From the IMG/VR virus record IMGVR_UViG_3300025009_000092: a stretch of 20,000 nucleotides of DNA; one strand, 5' to 3'. The DNA comes from an uncultured virus (IMG/VR IMGVR_UViG_3300025009_000092). Lineage: Duplodnaviria > Heunggongvirae > Uroviricota > Caudoviricetes. The position numbers and the translations under genes are program-made. The notes under the pieces are model-generated. The model worked only from the letters and a program-made list of their open reading frames with translations. It searched no databases and was not told the origin of the DNA. Shown here piece by piece: positions 1,702 to 19,679 of this stretch; within the stretch, counting starts at the first letter, position 1, and each line of letters begins with the position of its first letter.

Positions 1702-2507
1702 CCAACCATTTCCTTCTGGGGGAGTATGATAACCGCAGAACCAATTGGGGTGTCGCCGGTGGTAATATCAATATCCTGGCGGTCATTCCATTGTTCGGCC
1801 TTGGGAAGCGTTTTGGTACGATTCCACAAAAAGAATTTGGCGCTGGCAACATCGGCCGGCATATGTTTCTTTACCAGTTTATGAAGTATGATCTCCCGTA
1901 TAGGATAACCTTCCTCATCCCGGACTATATTACCATCGATATCCTTCTTGAATTCTTGGCGATATTCCTTCTCTTCCAGGTTGTAGCCACATGCCCGATG
2001 ATAAAGGCTTTTCGCCACGTTTGCATTAGCTACTTCACGCCCCTCTATAATGGCATAATTAAATTCGTCATCATCGTCCCGCCATTTATGTAACGTCTCA
2101 ACCTCAATCCCCAACAGCCTGGCCAGCTTCTCATCCGTACAACCCAACAAACAATACGACAAAGCCAATGCCGGATGGGTATCCTTCTTATATATGGGCT
2201 CGACCCCTGCGTGCATCTGTTCTTGTATTGCTTTTATCTGCCTTTGGAGTTCATTTATCTTGTTATATCTCCGGGCGCATTTCCTTTTGACGGTGGAATC
2301 ATTGGGATTTATCTTCAGGAGGGGAGTGGCCTTGATGGGGCCTTTGCCGGCGGGCTTATACTTGAGTGTTGGCTTCTGTATTGTGTTTTGGAGGCCTGGG
2401 GAGGATTGACGAACCATAATTTTGTACTTGTTGAGGTTGATATATATGGAGCGGGATTTCTGGGGTGGAAGATTTCTTGTTAATTTCCTTCCCCTTATAT
2501 TTACCAT
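1698..2507 (-). CDS. terS: Terminase small subunit (true start uncertain, possibly ATG at 2417)
   Basis: Directly upstream of and overlapping terL. HTH segment (LLGCTDEKLARLLGIEVETLHKW), then ANANVAKSLYHRACGY and PADVASAKFFLWNR...W.DR, typical of phage TerS. Confidence 0.85.
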   Translation of the reverse strand: MVNIRGRKLTRNLPPQKSRSIYINLNKYKIMVRQSSPGLQNTIQKPTLKYKPAGKGPIKATPLLKINPNDSTVKRKCARRYNKINELQRQIKAIQEQMHAGVEPIYKKDTHPALALSYCLLGCTDEKLARLLGIEVETLHKWRDDDDEFNYAIIEGREVANANVAKSLYHRACGYNLEEKEYRQEFKKDIDGNIVRDEEGYPIREIILHKLVKKHMPADVASAKFFLWNRTKTLPKAEQWNDRQDIDITTGDTPIGSAVIILPQKEMVG

Positions 2508-2641
2508 ATATATTAGATTTGCGAAGAATCAAAGGAGAATTAATTTTTTATATAATCTTAATAAATGCTTTATGATTATTGAAAAATAGATTATTATGGA
2601 GGTATAAGGCTTCAATATTATCGCTTAAAAGGAGAATAAAA

Positions 2642-3235
2642 ATGAAAAAGAGTTTAGTTGAATTACGAAGGGAATTAAAGCGCAAGTACAAATATGATCC
2701 AGAGACCGGAATATTTACAAGAAGAGACGGAAAGGTCCATGCCAATAGACTGAAAGAAATATATGCCGATAAACCCGAGCGATGGAAAGGGGCTGGTAAA
2801 TTAGTTTTAACCAAAAATGGCTTTGTAATTGACAACCAATATAATGGAGTCTATCTCAGCGGTAAAAGTTATAAAAACAATAGAGCGGCATTTTTATATA
2901 TGAAGGGATACCTTCCAGAAGGTATCGTTGATCATATTGATCAAGTAAAAACAAACGATCGCTGGGATAATCTCCGCGAAGTATCCCATTCATGCAATTT
3001 AAAAAATTCAAAACTCAGCAAAAAAAACAAAACTGGGGTGAAGGGGGTTTTCTATTCAGAAAAGGAAAAAAAATTCATTGTAAATATATCAGGGAATAAC
3101 AAAAACATCCGCCTCGGGAGTTTCAAAACCCTTTTGGAGGCTGCTGAGGCTCGGCATAAAGCAGAAATCGAATTTGGTTATCCAAATTGTGAAATGAATT
3201 CAACGGCTTTGCAATACATCAAAAAACACGAATAA
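2642..3235 (+). CDS. HNH homing endonuclease with C-terminal AP2-like domain
   Basis: AAGGAG RBS before ATG 2642; YDPETGIF, VDHIDQVKTNDRWDNLR...N (HNH), NKTGVKGV...RLGSFKTLLEAAEAR (AP2-like); AT-rich relative to its neighbours. Confidence 0.9.
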   Translation: MKKSLVELRRELKRKYKYDPETGIFTRRDGKVHANRLKEIYADKPERWKGAGKLVLTKNGFVIDNQYNGVYLSGKSYKNNRAAFLYMKGYLPEGIVDHIDQVKTNDRWDNLREVSHSCNLKNSKLSKKNKTGVKGVFYSEKEKKFIVNISGNNKNIRLGSFKTLLEAAEARHKAEIEFGYPNCEMNSTALQYIKKHE

Positions 3236-3259
3236 TTTATTAAGATTTTAGTTTTTTTC

Positions 3260-3288
3260 TTGACATCCTGTACAGGGCATATTATTAT
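3260..3288 (+). promoter_or_regulatory. Sigma70-type early promoter with a palindrome in the spacer
   Basis: TTGACA (3260-3265), 17-nt spacer, TATTAT (3283-3288), T-rich upstream tract; the spacer contains the perfect palindrome CCTGTACAGG (3267-3276). Confidence 0.8.
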
Positions 3289-3388
3289 AAGACATAAGAT
3301 AAAGATTGAGAGGGAAAGGGGGAGGTTAATCGAGAACCCGATAGGCGGGGATGGTCCAGTTGAGGAGCGCCCCACCAGGAAGCGGATA

Positions 3389-3442
3389 TAGTGTCTTTGA
3401 TTGTTTGATCAGACTGACGAGCCCATTCAGGGCGAAACACTA
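3389..3442 (+). ncRNA. Hammerhead ribozyme, type III
   Basis: Stem III TAGTGT/ACACTA; cleavage triplet GTC (cut after 3395); stem I TTTGATT-GTTT-GATCAGA; core CTGACGA (3414-3420); stem II GCCC-ATTCA-GGGC; GAAA (3434-3437). Confidence 0.92.
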
Positions 3443-3458
3443 AATGAGGAGATTGGCC

Positions 3459-3716
3459 ATGAAGAAATGTTTATCCGATGCATTGGCTATCGACGAGTTG
3501 CGAGTAACACTGGAAAACATATCACATGATGATGATAGGGATATGGAAGATTATAGTAGGGAAGAACTGGTAGCGGAGGCTAATTATGTTCTTTCTTGCT
3601 ATTTTGAAGGTGGGCATATGTCAAATGATGAATTGAATTCAGATGATGGCGAAATCAGATCAAGCGCTAAAAAACAGGTAAAAATGTTACAAAATTATAT
3701 TAAAAAATATAGTTAA
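3459..3716 (+). CDS. Hypothetical acidic early protein (85 aa)
   Basis: GAGGAG RBS at 3446-3451 and ATG at 3459; first ORF after the early promoter and hammerhead. Confidence 0.75.
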   Translation: MKKCLSDALAIDELRVTLENISHDDDRDMEDYSREELVAEANYVLSCYFEGGHMSNDELNSDDGEIRSSAKKQVKMLQNYIKKYS

Positions 3717-3764
3717 ATAACAACCCCCAACCGAGCCCGGCGGAATCCGGCATTGGAGGATGGT

Positions 3765-3935
3765 ATGAAATTGGAAATAGTCAAATATGGGGACGAAAGA
3801 AATATCATCGTTAAATCCTGGAAAGAGGTAAAAGAACATTTACAAAGAACAAATCTCCCTCACTGCTTTGTTCTTTCTGAGATCAAAGGCCATAACTGCT
3901 CATTAACCAAAACTGGAAGATTACAAAGAGATTAA
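3765..3935 (+). CDS. Hypothetical early protein (56 aa)
   Basis: GGAGGA RBS at 3755-3760 and ATG at 3765. Confidence 0.65.
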   Translation: MKLEIVKYGDERNIIVKSWKEVKEHLQRTNLPHCFVLSEIKGHNCSLTKTGRLQRD

Positions 3936-4004
3936 CCACTTCGAAACCGGCTCCGGCCGGTCATCCAGGGTTCGGCTCCTGGGTCTGATGAGATAGCCGG
4001 TTAA
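3932..4004 (+). ncRNA. Hammerhead ribozyme, type II, with loop I/3'-tail pseudoknot
   Basis: GAAA 3943-3946; stem III ACCGGC-TCCG-GCCGGT; GTC triplet (cut after 3962); stem I ATCCAGG/CCTGGGT; core CTGATGA 3985-3991; open stem II TC/GA extended by TTAACC/GGTTAA; loop I CGGCT (3973-3977) is complementary to AGCCG (3995-3999). Confidence 0.92.
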
Positions 4005-4024
4005 CCAAATCAAAGGAGAATGTC

Positions 4025-4255
4025 ATGAATATCGAACGGGTATATCTTTGCAACGAAGCATTCGGGACTGTAAAAAAGCAGGTTCATGCTTGGATTGATG
4101 GTCAATTCTATCGGATTTTTGGCGAGGGAGATAAAAGGGAAATAAGAAAAGTCATCTCCGCAACAAAACAGCCAAAATTAACCGGAAAGAAATTGATCAA
4201 TAAAATTTTAGCCGCAGTCGATAGCAAACCCCTTCCTCCTGTTGCATGGTTTTGA
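4025..4255 (+). CDS. Hypothetical basic early protein (76 aa)
   Basis: AAGGAG RBS immediately after the second hammerhead; ATG at 4025. Confidence 0.75.
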   Translation: MNIERVYLCNEAFGTVKKQVHAWIDGQFYRIFGEGDKREIRKVISATKQPKLTGKKLINKILAAVDSKPLPPVAWF

Positions 4256-4276
4256 ACTTTAAAATAAGGACTCCCC

Positions 4277-4705
4277 ATGACCAGAATCAATATAGTCCCA
4301 CCCGCCGAGCTTTGCGACCAACAGCTTATAGCTGAATGGCGCGAGCTAACCAGAATCCCCAATGGTATTGTTGCCGGGAAGTATGTAATTGATTTGGAGC
4401 AGATCCCCAAACAATACACCGTCAGGACTGAAGATAATCCGGATGGCGGCAAAGGGCATATGAAATTCTTCTTCAATAAGTTAAAATTCCTGTATCGCCG
4501 GTATGAAGCAATCAGGGATGAGCTTGCCCAGCGGGGAATGCCGAGGCGGAGTATGTGGCCTGTTGGTGAATTTATGGTCTGGCCCACGATTGATAATATT
4601 CTTTGGAACGATTACGAGCCGACCCCGGAAGCAATGACCCTGAACAGAAAACGGATTGCGGAGAAGTTCCCCAAGAAACCAAGATATGCAAGGGAAAGGT
4701 TATGA
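4277..4705 (+). CDS. denV: Pyrimidine-dimer DNA glycosylase / T4 endonuclease V family
   Basis: MTRINIVPPAELCDQQLIAEWRELTRI matches the EndoV N-terminus (catalytic Thr2 and Glu23 region); G.GHMKFFFNKLKFL..RY..I..EL..RG. Confidence 0.93.
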   Translation: MTRINIVPPAELCDQQLIAEWRELTRIPNGIVAGKYVIDLEQIPKQYTVRTEDNPDGGKGHMKFFFNKLKFLYRRYEAIRDELAQRGMPRRSMWPVGEFMVWPTIDNILWNDYEPTPEAMTLNRKRIAEKFPKKPRYARERL

Positions 4706-4914
4706 AGAAATATCCACCGGCCTGGAACTTAACGGCAATCGAACTTGAACTAGCCATTCTGCGTGGGCTTCCGGCCACAGACCTAGTTGAGCATTGGGAG
4801 CGGCTGCAGAAAATCCAAGCCGATCTAGCCCATTTGTTTAAATCAGTTACTTATCAACGGGCCGTAAATTTAGCGGCTCAATCCGATATTATTGAGGAGG
4901 AAAATCATGAGTAA
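4702..4914 (+). CDS. Hypothetical protein (70 aa)
   Basis: ATGA overlap with the denV stop and a GAAAGG RBS; start reassigned from 4603 to 4702. Confidence 0.65.
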   Translation: MKKYPPAWNLTAIELELAILRGLPATDLVEHWERLQKIQADLAHLFKSVTYQRAVNLAAQSDIIEEENHE

Positions 4915-5050
4915 TCGAGCAGGTTTTTGGTTTATGGTTGGATTCATTCTTGTTATAATAATTTCCTTCATCACCTATGCCCCGGAAATTATGGGAGTCA
5001 AACAGAAACTCGAAAACAAGGCGGTGGGATATGGTCAGCTCAATTATTAA
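4907..5050 (+). CDS. Small membrane protein (47 aa, MSNRAGFWFMVGFILVIIISFITYAPEI...), not in the ORF track
   Basis: GAGGAGG RBS, ATG 4907, TAA 5048-5050; one hydrophobic segment. Confidence 0.7.
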   Translation: MSNRAGFWFMVGFILVIIISFITYAPEIMGVKQKLENKAVGYGQLNY

Positions 5051-5150
5051 GATCGTTGTCGCCATCCTGTTTCTGATTCTTTTTGGAATAGCCGGGGAAA
5101 TGGATTATCAGGACCATGTTTCCCGGCAAGAACCAACAACCCAGTATTAG
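5031..5150 (+). CDS. Small membrane protein (39 aa, MVSSIIKIVVAILFLILFGIAGEMDYQDH...), not in the ORF track
   Basis: ATG 5031 to TAG 5150 fills the gap before the sigma-factor RBS; hydrophobic stretch followed by G.MDYQD. Confidence 0.6.
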   Translation: MVSSIIKIVVAILFLILFGIAGEMDYQDHVSRQEPTTQY

Positions 5151-5159
5151 GAGATTGAA

Positions 5160-5675
5160 ATGACCCCCAATCACACCAACCAGCTCGTTGAAAAACATAT
5201 TTCCCAAGTAAACAAACTCGCCTGGTCCTTTGCCAAAACAACTGGTCATGAATTTGATGACCTCAAGTCGGAAGGAACTATTGCAATGCTGAGGGCAATC
5301 AAGAAATTCAATCCAGATCATGGTTGCGAATTATCCACCTTAATTCATACCACCTGCCGGAATGCCATGGTTCAGTATTTGAAAACCCAGGGGAAGAAGT
5401 TCCCGGCAACGAATGAGGAAGTTGATGTAGCGGATCATAGGCCGAGTGGTCACCAGCGATATGAATTTCTTGAATCCCTCTCTTCCCTTGGGGCCGAGGC
5501 AAAACAGGTATTGCGGATCATTTTCGAGTCACCAAAGGAAATGACCAATATCACAGCGGGAAATTCTGCCGGCAATATCCGGAAGACCATTGAACGGACC
5601 ATGCGGGATATGGGATTCAAGGGCCGGGGGATCGAGCGGGCGTTTAATCAAATCAGATCAACTTTTCAGAATTAA
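5160..5675 (+). CDS. Phage-encoded sigma70-family sigma factor (region 2 recognisable)
   Basis: FDDLKSEGTIAMLRAIKKFNPDHGCELSTLIHTTCRNAM resembles the region 2 consensus (DL.QEG.IGL..A..KFDP..G..FSTYA...IR); AGGAG RBS. Confidence 0.82.
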   Translation: MTPNHTNQLVEKHISQVNKLAWSFAKTTGHEFDDLKSEGTIAMLRAIKKFNPDHGCELSTLIHTTCRNAMVQYLKTQGKKFPATNEEVDVADHRPSGHQRYEFLESLSSLGAEAKQVLRIIFESPKEMTNITAGNSAGNIRKTIERTMRDMGFKGRGIERAFNQIRSTFQN

Positions 5676-14202: not shown

Positions 14203-15735
14203 ATGAGTTCCCAATTCATCGAACGCCGCATTGCCATCGGCCTCATTACCAACGACCAATACCTGCGGGAAATAGCCCCCGTATTTAATGCCGATCTCCT
14301 CAAGGATGAAGCGGCAAAAAAGATTGCCTCCTGGTGCATCCGCTATTTCAATAAGCACGGAAAAGCACCCCTGGAAGATATCGGGATCATCTTCGAATCA
14401 TATACCAGGAGGGGGAAACTCAATCAGGAAGAATCGGAGGATATTGGTAGCATCCTTGACGACCTCAGTGATGAATATCAAACCCAGGCCGAGAACAACC
14501 CGGAGGTCCTGATTGACGAAACTTTCGCATACTTCGATGAAAACAGGCTAGTTCGCCTGGCGGATGATATCAAGGCCGAGGCCCAGCGGGGGAACCTGTT
14601 AGAGGCCAATGTACTGCTTGCTACTAATAAGCAAATTCAACGGGCGGTAAATATAAACCATGACTTCTTCGCCGATGATATTACCAGGACGCAAAAAATA
14701 TTTGAAGACATCCAGGAGCCAATTGTCGAATACCCTGGTAAGCTCGGGCAACTCTGGAACCGGCATTTCGTTCGTGGAGGTTTTGTTGGATTACTCGGCC
14801 CTGAAAAAACTGGAAAAACATGGTGGCTGGCAGACATTGGATTCCAGGCCCAACGAACCGGTAAAAAAGTAGCCTTCTTTGCGGCCGGGGATATGAACCG
14901 GGAGGAAATGGAACTCCGGAAATATATCTATATGGCCAGGAAATCCAACGAACTTGAATATTGCGGGCAATTGATGATCCCGGTGGTTGATTGTTTCTGG
15001 AATCAGAATGGTCAATGTCCGGCTGGTTGCGGTGAATCGCCAATCCGGGGAGATAAACCACCGGCCTTCAAGGATCTCCAACAAGTTTATAGCGATGCTT
15101 TTGAACAATATGGAAGTGACCATACCCCATGCACCAAATGCCAGGGCAAAAAAGAATTCCTAGGTGCCCCATGGTTCAAGCTCCGAGATAAAATAGTCCC
15201 CCTGAACTGGAAAGAGGCATATAATATTGAGCGAAAATTCCAAAAACGATTTCGTGGGGCTGGTTGGAACTTTGCCGATTATCCGGCTTATACCCTCAGT
15301 CCGAAAATGATTGATAATCAATTGGCCATCTGGCACGAAGGCGGCTTTACAGCCGATGTTGTGTTGATTGATTATCCGGATATCATGGCCCCAGACCTGG
15401 AAGACCAGCGAATGGATTTCCGGCAGAAAGAGAATATGAAGTGGTTGAAGATCCGGGCGTTGGCCCATAAGTGGCATTGCCTCGTTGTTTGCCCTACACA
15501 AGCCGATGGAGCCAGTTATGGCAAGGACTGGCTGGATCTCTCCAACTACAGCGAGGATAAGCGAAAGTACAGCCATACAACGGCCTTCTTTGGTCTCAAT
15601 CAAACCGATGGGGAAGCCGAGTTGGGGCTATTCAGGATTAATCAATTAATTGTTCGAAGTGGAAAGCGAGGAAAGAAGTATGCAACTATTTGCCAGCGGC
15701 TCGAAATGGGTCGGCCATTTCTAGGATCATATTAA
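14203..15735 (+). CDS. DnaB-like (SF4) replicative helicase with a Cys-rich insert
   Basis: Helical N-terminal domain (IERRIAIGLITNDQYL), Walker A GPEKTGKT, VLIDYPD (Walker B), VVCPTQ, late Arg motif IVRSG. Confidence 0.8.
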   Translation: MSSQFIERRIAIGLITNDQYLREIAPVFNADLLKDEAAKKIASWCIRYFNKHGKAPLEDIGIIFESYTRRGKLNQEESEDIGSILDDLSDEYQTQAENNPEVLIDETFAYFDENRLVRLADDIKAEAQRGNLLEANVLLATNKQIQRAVNINHDFFADDITRTQKIFEDIQEPIVEYPGKLGQLWNRHFVRGGFVGLLGPEKTGKTWWLADIGFQAQRTGKKVAFFAAGDMNREEMELRKYIYMARKSNELEYCGQLMIPVVDCFWNQNGQCPAGCGESPIRGDKPPAFKDLQQVYSDAFEQYGSDHTPCTKCQGKKEFLGAPWFKLRDKIVPLNWKEAYNIERKFQKRFRGAGWNFADYPAYTLSPKMIDNQLAIWHEGGFTADVVLIDYPDIMAPDLEDQRMDFRQKENMKWLKIRALAHKWHCLVVCPTQADGASYGKDWLDLSNYSEDKRKYSHTTAFFGLNQTDGEAELGLFRINQLIVRSGKRGKKYATICQRLEMGRPFLGSY

Positions 15736-15746
15736 AAGGAGAGGAT

Positions 15747-16121
15747 ATGTCAATCACAGTAACCAAGAAGTTTAGTTTTTGTTATGCTCACCACTTGCCG
15801 GAGTATGATGGAGACTGCTCCCGTGTTCATGGCCACAATAGTGCCGTTGAGGTCGAATTCACCAATGAGTATGGTCAGCTGCCAAGACCATATCCGGGCA
15901 TGGTAGTCGACTTCAAGGATATCAAGAAAATTGTCGGGCCGATTATTGATCAGCTTGATCATCGGTATTTGAATGATATTCTTGACCCCTTTAATCCCAC
16001 CGCCGAGACCATTGCAAATTGGATTGCCGGCCGGATAATGGAGACCCCACTTGGTCCGGGATTGATCAGGGTGCAGGTTTCGGAAACTGACGATTCTTTT
16101 GCCACCTGGAGAAAAGCATGA
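15747..16121 (+). CDS. queD: 6-carboxy-5,6,7,8-tetrahydropterin synthase
   Basis: FCYAHHL, CSRVHGHN, MVVDF, LDHRYLN, PTAE, VSET; AAGGAG RBS with ATG 15747. Confidence 0.95.
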   Translation: MSITVTKKFSFCYAHHLPEYDGDCSRVHGHNSAVEVEFTNEYGQLPRPYPGMVVDFKDIKKIVGPIIDQLDHRYLNDILDPFNPTAETIANWIAGRIMETPLGPGLIRVQVSETDDSFATWRKA

Positions 16122-16774
16122 AAACGAAGATTAATATCATGTCAATTTTCTTTTCAATCTCCGGAGAGGTCAATATCTGGCCGCAAGGAGCCCCGACCAT
16201 ATTCATTCGTTTTGCTGGTTGCAATTTGGCTTGCCACTATTGCGATACCAAACAATCAATCAATGCTGCCGGTACCCAGATGACTGTCGAAGAAATAGTC
16301 GAGCAGGTCAAATCTTTTGATTGTCAGCGGGTTTTGATCACCGGCGGGGAACCCCTATTACAAAAGAATGGTCTACAGGCATTAATCAGAGAACTTGATA
16401 TCCAGGGATATGTGACTAGTGTTGAAACAAATGGATCTCTTCCCCTGGATATCCTTCCTGAGCATCCGGATTGCTGGGTGGTCGATATCAAGATGCCGGG
16501 GAGTGGATATTTTGATTCTATGATCCTGCCGGAAAAACACCTGGAAGATGCCGAAGTCTGGGATAATTTGATTTTCAAATTCCCAATTGAGAATGAACGA
16601 GACTTCCAAACCGCGGCCGATATTATAAAGGATCTGAGCGAACACGCGGCCGGATTCGCTCTTTCCCCGATTTCCCCCTTGACTGCAATTGAATTATGGG
16701 GATGGATGGTCAGAGCCGGATTGACTCATTGTATCCTAAATACCCAGATTCATAAGTTTTTAAAATTAGAATAG
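16118..16774 (+). CDS. queE: 7-carboxy-7-deazaguanine synthase (radical SAM)
   Basis: IFFSISGE, FIRFAGCNLACHYCDT (CX3CX2C), ITGGEP, VETNG, QIHK. Confidence 0.95.
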   Translation: MKTKINIMSIFFSISGEVNIWPQGAPTIFIRFAGCNLACHYCDTKQSINAAGTQMTVEEIVEQVKSFDCQRVLITGGEPLLQKNGLQALIRELDIQGYVTSVETNGSLPLDILPEHPDCWVVDIKMPGSGYFDSMILPEKHLEDAEVWDNLIFKFPIENERDFQTAADIIKDLSEHAAGFALSPISPLTAIELWGWMVRAGLTHCILNTQIHKFLKLE

Positions 16775-16802
16775 ACTGCCGGCAGAATTATTTTGCCGGA
16801 AT

Positions 16803-16853
16803 GTAAAATATTTCCGTAGAAAATCATTCGAAAACAGTATAATAGGATAGAAG
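16803..16853 (+). promoter_or_regulatory. Repeated phage promoter-like motif, copy 2
   Basis: GTAAAATA...AGAAAA...GAAAACAGTATAATAGGATAGAAG, matching 11088-11137; preceded by the hairpin CCGGCAGAA/TTTTGCCGG (16779-16799). Confidence 0.75.
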
Positions 16854-16915
16854 ATAAAAATGGTCAGTGTGATCATTTGCCAGGATTTCCAAACCAAGAA
16901 TAAAGGAGAATTGCC

Positions 16916-17719
16916 ATGAGTGAACCCAAACGCCCCGAATTGATTGCTGCCGCAAAGGAATTGAACACCCTGCTGGACCCCGATCCCAAGATCAAGACGG
17001 TCGGCGTAAAGACTGATGAATTGACCAAGGCTATTGTGGTAGCGGCCGGCCTGCTCGATAAGGGGGATTCCCTGACGACCGAAACCCACGCCGTCCTCTG
17101 CGCCCTGGAAGTTGAGTTACCGGAAGGCCTGGTCATTGCCGCTGCCGATGCGGATGATGAAAATGGCGATAATGCCCAGGAAGAGAAAAAGCCCGAGCCG
17201 GCAATTGAGCGGGAAGACCTGGTTGCCCTGATCGAAGAAATGAACAAGGTCATGGATCTGGACCCGGCAATCGAAGCCAGTGAGAAATCAAGCATCGACG
17301 GTCTCAAGAAACTGATCCATGATAATTGCTACGATAAGGGCGAGTGCCAGGTCTTTGATACCGACAAATTCAGCCCCGAAGCATGGGAAACCTTGACGGT
17401 CCTGGGTGTCCGGCCGGTAGTTACCAAGAAGGCCAAGGATAAGCCGGCAAAAGCCGAGAAGGCAGAAAAGCCCGCCAAGGCCGGAAAAGCGGAGAAGGCT
17501 GAGAAGCCGGCAAAGGCCAAGAAAGAGAAAAAGGAAAAATCCCCCGGCACCCCTTCCAATAAGCGGATTGTTTATGACCTCTTTGCGGCCGGCGAGAAGG
17601 ATCAGGCAAAAATGCTGAAAGCCACGAATGATGCTGTATCCGCCACGACCATCAAGATTTGGATCTCCATGTGGGCCAAGGGTAAAAACCTGCCGGCAGG
17701 TATCAAAGCCGCCGAATGA
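16916..17719 (+). CDS. Hypothetical protein: duplicated acidic domain, Lys/Ala-rich (histone H1-like) repeats, small C-terminal domain
   Basis: AAAGGAG RBS; KPAKAEKAEKPAKAGKAEKAEKPAKAKK; two similar N-terminal units. Confidence 0.8.
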   Translation: MSEPKRPELIAAAKELNTLLDPDPKIKTVGVKTDELTKAIVVAAGLLDKGDSLTTETHAVLCALEVELPEGLVIAAADADDENGDNAQEEKKPEPAIEREDLVALIEEMNKVMDLDPAIEASEKSSIDGLKKLIHDNCYDKGECQVFDTDKFSPEAWETLTVLGVRPVVTKKAKDKPAKAEKAEKPAKAGKAEKAEKPAKAKKEKKEKSPGTPSNKRIVYDLFAAGEKDQAKMLKATNDAVSATTIKIWISMWAKGKNLPAGIKAAE

Positions 17720-18123
17720 AACGAATAGCCTTCATAGGTTGTTCAAAGAGGAAGAAAACCTCCCCCTGCCAGGCAAAGGACCTGTATCAGGGGGAGTTGT
17801 TTAAAAAATCTCTTCGTTATTGCCAACAAGAAAAATTCGACGAAATATATATTCTGTCTGCCAAATATGGATTGGTCTTTTTACAAGATATCATCCAGCC
17901 GTACGAAAAAACCCTGAATACATTTACAGAAGACGAAAAGAAAAATTGGTCCGATAAAGTAAAACAACAAATTTTAGAAAAGAATATTTCCGGGGAATTT
18001 TGGTTCTTTTGCGGAAGCAATTACCATAAACATTTTGAAGGTGAAAAACCTTTATTTGGTTTATCCCTTGGATATCAATTAAACTGGTTCAATCAAAAAT
18101 TAAAAAAGGGGTTCAATCTATGA
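17716..18123 (+). CDS. DUF6884-like protein
   Basis: IGCSKRK.....AKDLY.G.LF....Y......YILSAKYGL.....I.PYE.TL; AT-rich; coupled to both neighbours. Confidence 0.75.
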   Translation: MKRIAFIGCSKRKKTSPCQAKDLYQGELFKKSLRYCQQEKFDEIYILSAKYGLVFLQDIIQPYEKTLNTFTEDEKKNWSDKVKQQILEKNISGEFWFFCGSNYHKHFEGEKPLFGLSLGYQLNWFNQKLKKGFNL

Positions 18124-18782
18124 AAATCGTCTTATCGCTATCCGGCGGGATGGATTCCGCCGCCCTGCTCGGGACCCTGCTCGGGACTGGCCATGAAGTT
18201 TTTGCCGTCTCTTTCTTCTATGGTTCCAAGCACAATCAGTATGAATTGGAAGCCGCCCGGAAGCTGACCGAGCATTATGGTATAAAGCGGCAGTCAATGG
18301 ATATCTCCGGGATCTTCGCCGGGTTCAAGTCGGCCCTGCTGAAAGAGGATTCCCGGTCGATCCCGGAAGGTCATTATGAAGACCGTACTATGGTACAAAC
18401 GGTCGTACCTGGGCGGAATATGATCTTCTCGGCTATCCTTGCGGGGTTGGCCCAATCATTCGAGTACGACGCGGTAGCGCTCGGTATCCATGCAGGGGAT
18501 CATACCATCTATCCGGATTGCCGGCCAGTCTTCAAAGAAAGCATGGATCTGGCCATTAAAACCGCTTCTGAGTATTCGGTTTCCTTGTATGCCCCTTTCC
18601 TGGGAATGAGCAAGGGAGATATCGTCAAGGTCGGGATGGAGCACAAAGTTCCTTTTAAATTGACCCGCACCTGTTATAAGGATCAGTCTTTGTCTTGTGG
18701 AAAATGTGGATCATGTACCGAAAGATTGGAAGCATTCGCCGAGAATGGCCTGGTTGATCCGATTCAGTATGCGGTAAAGTAA
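18120..18782 (+). CDS. queC: 7-cyano-7-deazaguanine (preQ0) synthase
   Basis: SLSGGMDS PP-loop, VPGRNMIF, YPDCR, TRTCY...CGKCGSC.ER zinc site. Confidence 0.96.
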   Translation: MKIVLSLSGGMDSAALLGTLLGTGHEVFAVSFFYGSKHNQYELEAARKLTEHYGIKRQSMDISGIFAGFKSALLKEDSRSIPEGHYEDRTMVQTVVPGRNMIFSAILAGLAQSFEYDAVALGIHAGDHTIYPDCRPVFKESMDLAIKTASEYSVSLYAPFLGMSKGDIVKVGMEHKVPFKLTRTCYKDQSLSCGKCGSCTERLEAFAENGLVDPIQYAVK

Positions 18783-18794
18783 ATAGGAGGCTCC

Positions 18795-19679
18795 GTGAAA
18801 AGAATTATTACAAATGAAGAAGTAGAACTTGCTTGCCTGCCAATAATAAAATCAATCCCAAAAGATGAACTAGGGTTTGGTGGGCCGAGTTTTTATGGTG
18901 TGCCGCGCGGAGGAATTGCCCCTGCATATATGCTGGCCGGATTAACCGATGGTTCCGTAGCGGATCATCCTAAAAAAGCCGACTATATTATTGATGACCT
19001 GATTGATTCCGGCAGTACCCGAGATCGATACGCCAAACTCTATCCCGACACTCCATTCATTACTCTTTTTGAAAAAACCGATCCGATGGAATGGCTGGTC
19101 TTCCCCTGGGAAGTTACCGAGCAGGGCCATGACACCTCTGCGGAAGATATCCCATCTCGTTTTTTAGAATTTATCGGAGAGGATTTAAATCGGGATGGAT
19201 TAAAAGAAACTCCAAAACGAATGATTAAAGCCTGGAAAGAAATTTTCAGCGGATATGAACAAAATCCATCTGATGTTATAAAAACTTTCGAATCAGATGG
19301 ATATGATCAAATAGTCCTTTTACGGGATATTGAATTATATTCCATGTGCGAACATCACGCATTACCATTTGTAGGCCGGGCACATGTCGCATATATTCCT
19401 GGAGGCAAGGTTATCGGTATTTCAAAGCTCGCAAGACTGATTGATATCTTTTCCAAAAGATTACAAATTCAAGAAAGAATAGGAGATCAGGTGACCTCAA
19501 TTCTCATGAATGAATTGAATGCCCAGGGAGCCGCCTGCATAATTGAAGCAGATCATTTCTGTATCAGAATGAGGGGCGTCGGAAAGCAGCATTCTACTAT
19601 GGTAACCTCTTCAATGAAAGGCGTATTTTTAACTAAGCCTGAAGCAAGATCCGAGTTATTGAGTTTGATCCGGTCATGA
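18795..19679 (+). CDS. folE: Fusion of a type I (Gpt-like) phosphoribosyltransferase domain and GTP cyclohydrolase I
   Basis: N-terminus: YGVPRGG, IIDDLIDSGST (PRPP loop), WLVFPWE. C-terminus: RDGLKETPKR, SMCEHHALPF.G, GISKLAR, LQIQER, HFCIRMRG. AGGAGG RBS with GTG start. Confidence 0.93.
   Translation: MKRIITNEEVELACLPIIKSIPKDELGFGGPSFYGVPRGGIAPAYMLAGLTDGSVADHPKKADYIIDDLIDSGSTRDRYAKLYPDTPFITLFEKTDPMEWLVFPWEVTEQGHDTSAEDIPSRFLEFIGEDLNRDGLKETPKRMIKAWKEIFSGYEQNPSDVIKTFESDGYDQIVLLRDIELYSMCEHHALPFVGRAHVAYIPGGKVIGISKLARLIDIFSKRLQIQERIGDQVTSILMNELNAQGAACIIEADHFCIRMRGVGKQHSTMVTSSMKGVFLTKPEARSELLSLIRS

What the first reader, a model, noticed from the sequence alone, without database searches (positions are those of the whole stretch)
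3932..4004. Type II hammerhead ribozyme with pseudoknot between early genes
Seen: a second hammerhead of different topology, with a cUCCGg-capped stem III, a GUC site at 3960-3962, CUGAUGA, a short stem II, and loop I CGGCU pairing with AGCCG in the 3' tail. It fills the gap between ORF 3765-3935 and the RBS of ORF 4025. Known: such loop I/tail pseudoknots are typical of active type II hammerheads.
Basis: partly seen in the sequence, partly recalled or inferred. Interest (0 to 1): 0.75.

Follow-up and report, generated by a model that had tools for sequence, protein, structure and literature searches.

The report
Self-cutting RNA between swappable phage genes
A genuine self-cutting hammerhead RNA sits between two small early genes of an uncultured phage and probably chops the long early message into gene-sized pieces, a layout known in phages since 2011; the only oddities are a weakened stem and a strong competing fold that may slow it.

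Summary
Confirmed. 3941-4000 (+) is a type II hammerhead: Rfam RF02276, 44.5 bits against a cut-off of 37, with an intact core and a predicted cut after C3962. The loop I/tail pseudoknot covaries across 66 relatives, but its register is 3972-3976 with 3996-4000; U3977-A3995 is unsupported. It lies in a phage early operon, 567 nt after a type III hammerhead. The geometry is common: 125 of 139 pattern hits in viral contigs share it, and 100 of 125 sit just before a ribosome site. Four of seven sister phages carry it at 98-100% identity, with four unrelated upstream genes and three different downstream genes; the others use different spacers. Best reading: it cuts the early transcript into hairpin-ended, gene-sized mRNAs and marks a border where genes are swapped. 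Perreault 2011 described this layout, and the scan found it before on other DNA. Two deviations could slow it: U·U at the third stem II pair (0 of 64 relatives) and an 8-bp competing helix stronger than in any of 69 relatives. Cleavage is untested. New member of a known kind.

The parts
3941..4000 (+). Type II hammerhead ribozyme (Rfam RF02276), minimal extent from stem II to the end of the pseudoknot tail
   Evidence: model match 3939-4002, 44.5 bits, cut-off 37
3946..3961 (+). Stem III hairpin, 6 bp, cUCCGg cap; becomes the 3'-terminal hairpin of the upstream product
   Evidence: the loop reads UUCG in sister L003; end protection is inference
3960..3962 (+). GUC triplet; predicted cut between C3962 and A3963
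   Evidence: cut position follows from hammerhead numbering (established knowledge), not observed
3963..3984 (+). Stem I (7 bp) with 8-nt loop I (3970-3977); becomes the 5'-terminal hairpin of the downstream mRNA
   Evidence: all 7 pairs show two-sided changes in the family, 92.6% of cells paired
3985..3991 (+). Catalytic core CUGAUGA
3992..3995 (+). 3' strand of stem II: 2 pairs with 3941-3942, then U3994 facing U3940 (mismatch where relatives pair), then A3995
   Evidence: third pair formed in 60 of 64 distinct relatives, U·U in 0 of 64
3996..4000 (+). Pseudoknot tail, pairs with loop I 3972-3976
   Evidence: sister L005 has A at the 4000 position, giving U-A
3945..4002 (+). Competing 8-bp helix, 3945-3952 with 3995-4002, which would remove stem III and the pseudoknot
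   Evidence: about 22% in the pseudoknot-free ensemble of 3925-4030; the minimum-energy fold of 3940-4002; duplex -13.5 kcal/mol, reached by 0 of 69 relatives
4012..4019 (+). Ribosome-binding site of ORF 4025; the 12-nt stretch 4008-4019 is shared by all four sister variants that carry the ribozyme
3765..3935 (+). Upstream exchangeable gene (slot 2), 56 aa, no family; its stop ends 6 nt before the ribozyme's CGAAA
   Evidence: unrelated genes in sisters
4025..4255 (+). Downstream exchangeable gene (slot 3), 76 aa, no family; relatives elsewhere show no type II ribozyme pattern in front
3388..3443 (+). Type III hammerhead (predicted cut after 3395), partner ribozyme at the head of the same operon
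   Evidence: 41.7 bits, below the cut-off of 48.5, E 3.5e-06
3459..3716 (+). First exchangeable gene (slot 1), 85 aa, no family
3717..3764 (+). Spacer M: C/A-rich stretch and GC hairpin directly before an RBS; unclassified junction element between slots 1 and 2
   Evidence: no Rfam match
3260..3288 (+). Sigma-70-type promoter that probably drives the operon
   Evidence: 11 of 12 consensus matches, best of 10 sites; shuffles give 7.8 sites; identical in L002 and L003
4277..4705 (+). Endonuclease V (pyrimidine-dimer glycosylase) gene, next gene on the downstream cleavage product

Best explanation
A functional, possibly somewhat slowed, type II hammerhead that processes the phage's early polycistronic mRNA. 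SHOWN: intact core, family membership, covarying stems and pseudoknot, position between a stop codon and an RBS, and near-invariance in sister phages whose flanking genes are replaced. INFERRED: stems III and I fold during transcription, the tail docks on loop I, and the RNA cuts after C3962. Because the open stem is only 2 bp the products part at once. The upstream piece (3396-3962 if the type III ribozyme also cuts; 567 nt, two genes) ends in the stem III hairpin. The downstream mRNA starts with a 5'-OH, the stem I hairpin and a fixed 62-nt leader holding the RBS. Each gene thus gets standard ends whatever its neighbour is, without a host nuclease. That makes the junction a natural insulator and lets small early genes be exchanged at its borders.
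For: Rfam score above cut-off; 0 of 100 shuffles give a descriptor hit. Family of identical geometry: 125 of 139 distinct matches pass both stems although stems were not in the pattern. Stem I plus pseudoknot: 87.1% of cells paired against 58.7% in shuffles and 32-41% for slid partners. RBS and start follow in 100 of 125 (shuffle mean 20.6), and an upstream ORF stops within 15 nt in 61 of 76. The 64 nt are 98.4-100% identical in 3 of 3 sisters that carry it, while neighbouring genes are 80-96% identical. The two sister differences within 3940-4003 are benign: a stem III loop change and a U·G to U-A improvement of the pseudoknot. No + strand terminator was found in 2400-5300. Perreault 2011: three tandem arrays cut as predicted in about 2-kb transcripts, one also in E. 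coli, and 14 of 18 tested hammerheads were active. RNase E and RppH need single-stranded 5' ends (PMC3997798 passage).
Against: No cleavage or RNA end was observed. The third stem II pair is U·U, seen in 0 of 64 relatives. The competing helix is stronger than in any of 69 relatives and is the pseudoknot-free minimum-energy fold of the 63-mer. The ribozyme is dispensable: 3 of 7 sister variants lack it, and relatives of the downstream gene lack the pattern. Sister L005 has an A-to-G change in the core of the type III partner, so decayed copies do persist in this clade. The leader is as conserved (96-99%) as the ribozyme, so high identity alone does not prove activity. RNase J can start on a 5'-OH (glmS case), so the cut need not stabilise; the host is unknown.
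Confidence: 0.7

Rival explanations
1. Gated ribozyme: the 8-bp competing helix holds it off until a ribosome terminating at 3933-3935 melts 3940-3950 and lets stem III refold, so cutting depends on translation of the upstream gene.
For: The competing helix is unusually strong (0 of 69 relatives match it) and present in 3 of 4 carriers. The stop lies 6 nt from the core, and stops abut the core in 61 of 76 relatives. The ribosome footprint covering this stretch is recalled, not measured.
Against: Sister L005 breaks one pair of the helix while improving the pseudoknot. Stem III and stem I are local hairpins made before the tail. Stems I+III (-21.9) plus the pseudoknot duplex (-8.1, before loop cost) probably beat the competing fold (-23.1). 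Sharing among three sisters may only reflect descent.
Confidence: 0.1
2. Degenerate or nearly inactive ribozyme kept mainly as a DNA homology island and RBS leader through which early genes are exchanged by recombination, like PeSL elements of T4-type phages.
For: Gene replacements begin at the stop codon on the left and at or just after the RBS on the right: 4 unrelated upstream genes and 3 different downstream genes in 4 carriers. All three quartet patterns occur among informative sites of the backbone, consistent with a recombining group. U·U mismatch and competing helix. This can coexist with the best explanation.
Against: Core, both stems and pseudoknot are perfectly kept; a mere homology island needs none of them. 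Only one copy was seen in each fetched stretch, so no repeat-to-repeat shuffling was seen. Only three of the four flank combinations needed to place a crossover inside the ribozyme were seen. Strong conservation also fits selection on structure.
Confidence: 0.1
3. The cut is a decay trigger: it exposes a 5'-OH end to an RNase J-type exonuclease and lowers or times expression of downstream genes, as with glmS.
For: RNase J1 degrades glmS mRNA from the ribozyme-made 5'-OH (PMC3997798 passage). Reviews leave open whether products are more or less stable (PMC6765202 passage).
Against: The new 5' end is base-paired from its first nucleotide. The ribozyme is followed by a strong RBS in 100 of 125 relatives, which suggests expression rather than silencing.
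Confidence: 0.06
4. The two ribozymes excise 3396-3962 for ligation into a circular two-gene mRNA.
For: The piece would carry a 5'-OH and a 2',3'-cyclic phosphate, the ends RtcB-type ligases join (recalled). Perreault 2011 raised the possibility.
Against: Perreault 2011 looked for circular and spliced products and found none. Sisters L155 and L162/L171 keep the type III ribozyme without the type II, and L005 keeps the type II with a core-altered type III, so the pair is not held together.
Confidence: 0.03
5. An integron attC-like single-stranded DNA recombination site rather than an RNA.
For: The stop codon sits in TAAC and GTT follows the element, recalling attC boxes (recalled). Structured motifs in consecutive spacers can be attC sites (PMC5737381 passage).
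Against: Both boxes are present in only 1 of 4 carriers. The fold is a three-way junction with the exact hammerhead core, not one long hairpin. No integrase among the 29 window ORFs scanned.
Confidence: 0.01

Closest known systems
Rfam RF02276 Hammerhead_II; type II hammerheads with loop I/3' tail pseudoknot (Perreault et al. 2011, PMC3088659; abstract, section 6, first part of section 11 and passages read)
   Same: Topology (stems I and III closed, stem II open), core, GUC site, short stem II, pseudoknot of four or more pairs, phage setting.
   Different: U·U where the matching subfamily has a third stem II pair (0 of 64), and an 8-bp competing helix stronger than in any of 69 relatives.
Clustered hammerheads flanking single genes or short gene blocks in prophages (Perreault et al. 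2011, Fig. 3 legend and text)
   Same: Two hammerheads of different type bracket a two-gene block; the identity of the flanked genes is not constant; processing of a long phage transcript is the proposed role.
   Different: Here close sister phages show gene replacement around one nearly identical ribozyme, and show the ribozyme itself replaced by unclassified spacers.
PeSL regulatory cassettes of T4-type phages (Arbiol et al. 2010, PMC2839356; abstract only)
   Same: Short conserved elements between non-essential, mostly unknown early genes in a hyperplastic region, with gene replacement at their borders.
   Different: PeSLs are promoter plus terminator units in many copies. This is a single self-cleaving RNA with no promoter or terminator in it, and recombination inside it is not shown.
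T7 early mRNA processing at RNase III sites, and the synthetic RiboJ insulator (both recalled; RiboJ seen only as a term in a search listing)
   Same: A long message is cut between genes so that each starts with a fixed, hairpin-bearing 5' end.
   Different: T7 needs a host enzyme and RiboJ is engineered; this is a natural, protein-free element. It is a functional analogy, not homology.

Membership tests
Hammerhead ribozyme type II (RF02276) | Covariance-model score at or above the curated cut-off | tested here: met
   44.5 bits against 37, model positions 1-66 of 66
Hammerhead ribozyme type II (RF02276) | Core CUGANGA, GAAA and NUH without substitutions | tested here: met
   3985-3991, 3943-3946, 3960-3962
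Hammerhead ribozyme type II (RF02276) | Stems I and III closed by loops, stem II open, no mispair next to the core | tested here: met
   stem II has 2 pairs, within the range that PMC3088659 calls common
Hammerhead ribozyme type II (RF02276) | Pseudoknot of four or more pairs between loop I and the tail after stem II | tested here: met
   4 Watson-Crick pairs plus U·G; columns covary in 66 aligned members, 0 of 500 shuffles reach the covariation score
Hammerhead ribozyme type II, subfamily with 3-bp stem II spacing | Third stem II pair | tested here: not met
   U3940·U3994 in the window and in all three carrier sisters; paired in 60 of 64 relatives. Not a defining feature of RF02276 itself
Hammerhead ribozyme type II (RF02276) | Site-specific self-cleavage | not testable with these tools
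   needs a bench assay or RNA ends
Clustered prophage/phage hammerheads (Perreault 2011) | Several hammerheads close together flanking single genes or short blocks | tested here: met
   type III at 3388-3443 and type II at 3941-4000 enclose two ORFs
Clustered prophage/phage hammerheads (Perreault 2011) | Flanked genes are not constant | tested here: met
   no blastp hit at E 1e-3 among the four upstream genes of the carriers (0 of 6 pairs); three different downstream genes
PeSL cassette | Sigma-70-like promoter and terminator stem-loop within the element | tested here: not met
   no promoter-like or terminator-like site in 3936-4024
PeSL cassette | Recombination at the element shuffles genes | tested here: inconclusive
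   replacements border the element and the backbone shows mixed quartet patterns, but no crossover was placed inside it
PeSL cassette | Mini-circle formation | not testable with these tools
   needs phage DNA
Integron attC site | Inverse core and core boxes at both ends (box wording recalled) | tested here: not met
   both present in 1 of 4 carriers
Integron attC site | Integrase gene nearby | tested here: not met
   none among 29 window ORFs scanned; the rest of the genome was not available

The most novel reading that the evidence does not exclude
The early operon of this phage group is a plug-in array whose junctions are interchangeable RNA devices. The hammerhead is a translation-gated switch (an 8-bp off-fold reset by the ribosome stopping 6 nt upstream) that doubles as the recombination joint for gene exchange. 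The unclassified spacers that take its place in sisters (spacer X, found after a homolog of the same gene in L162/L171, and spacer M) are undescribed self-cleaving or processing RNAs.
Probability: 0.1. Interest if true: 0.7.

Novelty: new member of a known kind. Interest (0 to 1): 0.3.

Why it matters
The RNA itself is ordinary. What bacterial and phage hammerheads do in the cell is still open (PMC6765202, passage read). This locus offers a tidy natural experiment: seven sister phages in which one junction is present, absent or replaced, with different genes on each side. That makes the insulator, decay and recombination-joint ideas testable with short constructs, and it points to two unclassified spacers in the very position where new ribozyme classes were found before. 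The host is unknown and the phage uncultured, which limits tests in a real infection.

Tried and rejected
No whole genome is held for this window, so other copies in the genome could not be counted. blastn against 50,697 cultured phages gave only a 28-30 nt AT-rich match at E 0.5: no cultured relative at that sensitivity. RNA runs: no RNA holder listed; no reads were laid. Outer helix 3932-3937/3999-4004: rejected as a conserved feature, 40 of 125 members against 44 in controls; among the four carriers only L002 has a strong one. Repeat search of 2400-5300 showed nothing tied to the ribozyme except the 14-nt RBS stretch 4008-4021 repeated at 2527-2540. Folding z-scores were not significant (-1.28 and -1.01), as expected for a pseudoknotted RNA folded without its pseudoknot. 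The flanking small proteins have no Pfam or PHROGs family and no usable Atlas hit, so no anti-defence role can be claimed. Spacer X: patterns in viral contigs and genomes gave only four true copies in three phage variants; the rest lacked the hairpin or lay in a gene, too few for covariation. Spacer M with its RBS: 0 matches in genome contigs. The metagenome scan returned 8 loci, all copies of variants already seen or shorter pieces of them. One fold printed for L003 used wrong coordinates and was ignored. The control (offsets inside the upstream gene) is weak by design. Paper searches listed no title or abstract showing phage hammerheads as recombination joints or measuring their effect during infection; most subscription papers are outside the library. 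No supplements were opened, and Dataset S1 of PMC3088659 may hold close relatives of this RNA.

Full report
1. The observation. Rfam matches 3939-4002 on the + strand to RF02276 Hammerhead_II at 44.5 bits, above the cut-off of 37, over the whole model. The only other credible RNA match in the window is a type III hammerhead at 3388-3443 (41.7 bits, below its cut-off of 48.5, E 3.5e-06). My own descriptor for all three topologies found exactly these two, and none in 100 dinucleotide shuffles of both strands.

2. Anatomy. Stem II is U3941-A3993 and C3942-G3992; G3943-A3945 are core. Stem III is 3946-3951 with 3956-3961, loop UCCG. The predicted cut is after C3962. Stem I is 3963-3969 with 3978-3984 around an 8-nt loop. 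The core CUGAUGA is 3985-3991 and the tail is 3995-4000. To test the pseudoknot without assuming it, I scanned viral contigs with a pattern holding only core letters and spacing. These held 139 distinct matches, of which 125 also formed stems I and III; 14 were dropped. Of the 125, 69 have the tail spacing of our RNA (64 distinct), 42 a shorter spacing and 14 neither. On an ungapped alignment of those 64 plus the window and sister L005, stem I plus pseudoknot pair in 87.1% of cells, against 58.7% in shuffles and 32-41% for slid partners. The four pairs matching 3973-3976 with 3996-3999 show 18, 27, 16 and 2 two-sided changes. The 3972-4000 position is mostly U-A or U·G. The 3977-3995 position is unpaired in 38 of 66; the A was fixed by my class definition, but its partner is free.

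3. Two deviations. The third stem II pair is formed in 60 of 64 relatives but is U·U here, a state seen in 0 of 64 and shared by all carriers of this lineage. The tail can also pair with 3945-3952 over 8 bp, which would remove stem III and the pseudoknot. This duplex (-13.5 kcal/mol) is stronger than in any of 69 relatives (median -3.1), and in 67 of 69 relatives stem III survives in the pseudoknot-free fold. Here the competing helix is the predicted fold of the 63-mer and about 22% of the ensemble in a longer piece. Stems I and III (-21.9) plus the pseudoknot duplex (-8.1 before loop cost) probably still beat it (-23.1); that is an estimate, since the program cannot fold pseudoknots.

4. Setting. 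The window is a tailed-phage genome: terminase genes on the - strand, then on the + strand an HNH endonuclease, small unknown genes, endonuclease V, a sigma factor, helicases, primase, ThyX and 7-deazaguanine pathway genes. A near-consensus sigma-70 promoter at 3260-3288 heads the small genes, and no + strand terminator was found in 2400-5300. The order is promoter, leader, type III hammerhead, gene (85 aa), spacer M, gene (56 aa), type II hammerhead, gene (76 aa), endonuclease V. The placement is the family norm: an RBS and start follow in 100 of 125 members (shuffle mean 20.6), an upstream ORF stops within 15 nt in 61 of 76 with enough flank, and the next ORF has a median of 66 codons in 67 members.

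5. Sister phages. Pattern and protein scans gave seven distinct variants of this operon: the window (identical to L001), L002, L003, L005, L155, L162/L171 and L166. Four carry the type II ribozyme, 98.4-100% identical over 64 nt, while shared neighbouring genes are 80-96% identical; the leader is 96-99% identical too. The four upstream genes are unrelated (0 of 6 pairs hit at E 1e-3), and three different genes follow. Shared sequence ends at the stop codon on the left and at or just after the RBS on the right. The same holds after the type III ribozyme, where six variants share sequence up to the ATG and then carry six unrelated genes. In L162/L171 a 59% identical homolog of L005's upstream gene is followed by a different structured spacer (X) in place of the hammerhead. 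Informative sites in the backbone support all three quartets, which fits a recombining group but does not place crossovers in the ribozyme. Only three of four left/right flank combinations were seen.

6. Mechanism. Shown: family membership, intact core, covarying structure, junction position, gene exchange around it. Inferred: co-transcriptional folding and cutting after C3962; quick parting of the products through the 2-bp stem II; a 3' hairpin on the upstream piece and a 5'-OH, hairpin-first 62-nt leader on the downstream mRNA. RNase E and RppH need single-stranded 5' ends, whereas RNase J can start on a 5'-OH (PMC3997798, passages), so stabilisation is likely but host-dependent, and the host is unknown. 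I give 0.7 to constitutive, perhaps slowed, processing into gene-sized mRNAs; 0.1 to a translation-gated switch; 0.1 to a near-inactive homology island; 0.06 to a decay trigger; 0.03 to circles; 0.01 to an attC-like site. The chance that the RNA cleaves at all is about 0.85-0.9, in line with 14 of 18 active in Perreault 2011.

7. What is known. Perreault et al. 2011 (PMC3088659; abstract, section 6, first part of section 11 and passages) described natural type II hammerheads and this pseudoknot, with mutational support. They also described clusters flanking non-constant genes in prophages, cutting of about 2-kb transcripts at all sites, and no detectable circles. A 2019 review (PMC6765202, passages) says the biological role in bacteria and phages remains largely open. 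PeSL cassettes (PMC2839356, abstract only) are the closest model for gene exchange, but this element fails their promoter and terminator features. T7 RNase III processing and RiboJ are recalled analogies. The scan's own notes report the same layout, including the recombination-joint idea, on several other genomes; they are unchecked leads, not support. Supplements were not opened.

8. Verdict. A real and well-formed type II hammerhead, a new member of a common and long-described kind, in a described setting. The sister-phage series, the two structural deviations and the unclassified substitute spacers are useful handles for testing function, but none is shown to be new biology. Interest 0.3.

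Noticed in passing
window 3717-3764; L002 2799-2842 and 3472-3517; L153, L154, L163, L152, L143: Spacer M: a C/A-rich stretch plus GC hairpin placed after a stop codon and directly before an RBS, in 6 of 7 sister variants (twice in L002) and in several unrelated viral contigs. No Rfam match; 0 matches with its RBS in genome contigs.
   Followed up: partly
L171 (reverse strand; spacers 3108-3189 and 4203-4272 of the reverse complement), L155 1676-1765, L220 695-760: Spacer X: outer stem, conserved internal loop and inner hairpin, between small genes and before an RBS. It takes the hammerhead's place after a homologous gene. The outer stem changes compensatorily in L220. Four true copies only; no Rfam match in L155 or L162. 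A candidate processing or self-cleaving RNA.
   Followed up: partly
L005 3454-3500; L166 3955-3990: A third short GC hairpin spacer shared by two sisters in front of different genes.
   Followed up: no
L005 about 2409-2415: The type III hammerhead of sister L005 has G for the A of the core (CUGGCGA), probably inactive, while the surrounding sequence is kept.
   Followed up: no
window 3289-3387: The leader before the type III hammerhead is 96-99% identical in three sisters, and a diverged version in L162/L171 keeps blocks and a possible paired region. No Rfam match. It is absent in L166.
   Followed up: partly
window 2642-3235: HNH endonuclease gene between the terminase genes and the early promoter; present in the window, L002 and L166, absent in L003 and L005, so probably mobile.
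   Followed up: no
window 15690-19679: QueD, QueE, QueC and GTP cyclohydrolase I genes plus a DUF6884 gene: a 7-deazaguanine pathway, probably for DNA modification.
   Followed up: no
L004 (reverse strand), L098, L064: Unrelated phages with denser arrays: L004 has two type II hammerheads with a compensatory pseudoknot change and a third hammerhead-like core further on; L098 holds seven type II matches and L064 three.
   Followed up: no
L155 1235-1477: A weak homolog (32% over 47 aa, E 8e-4) of the window's gene 4025-4255 sits after spacer M and appears cut short by an early stop.
   Followed up: no
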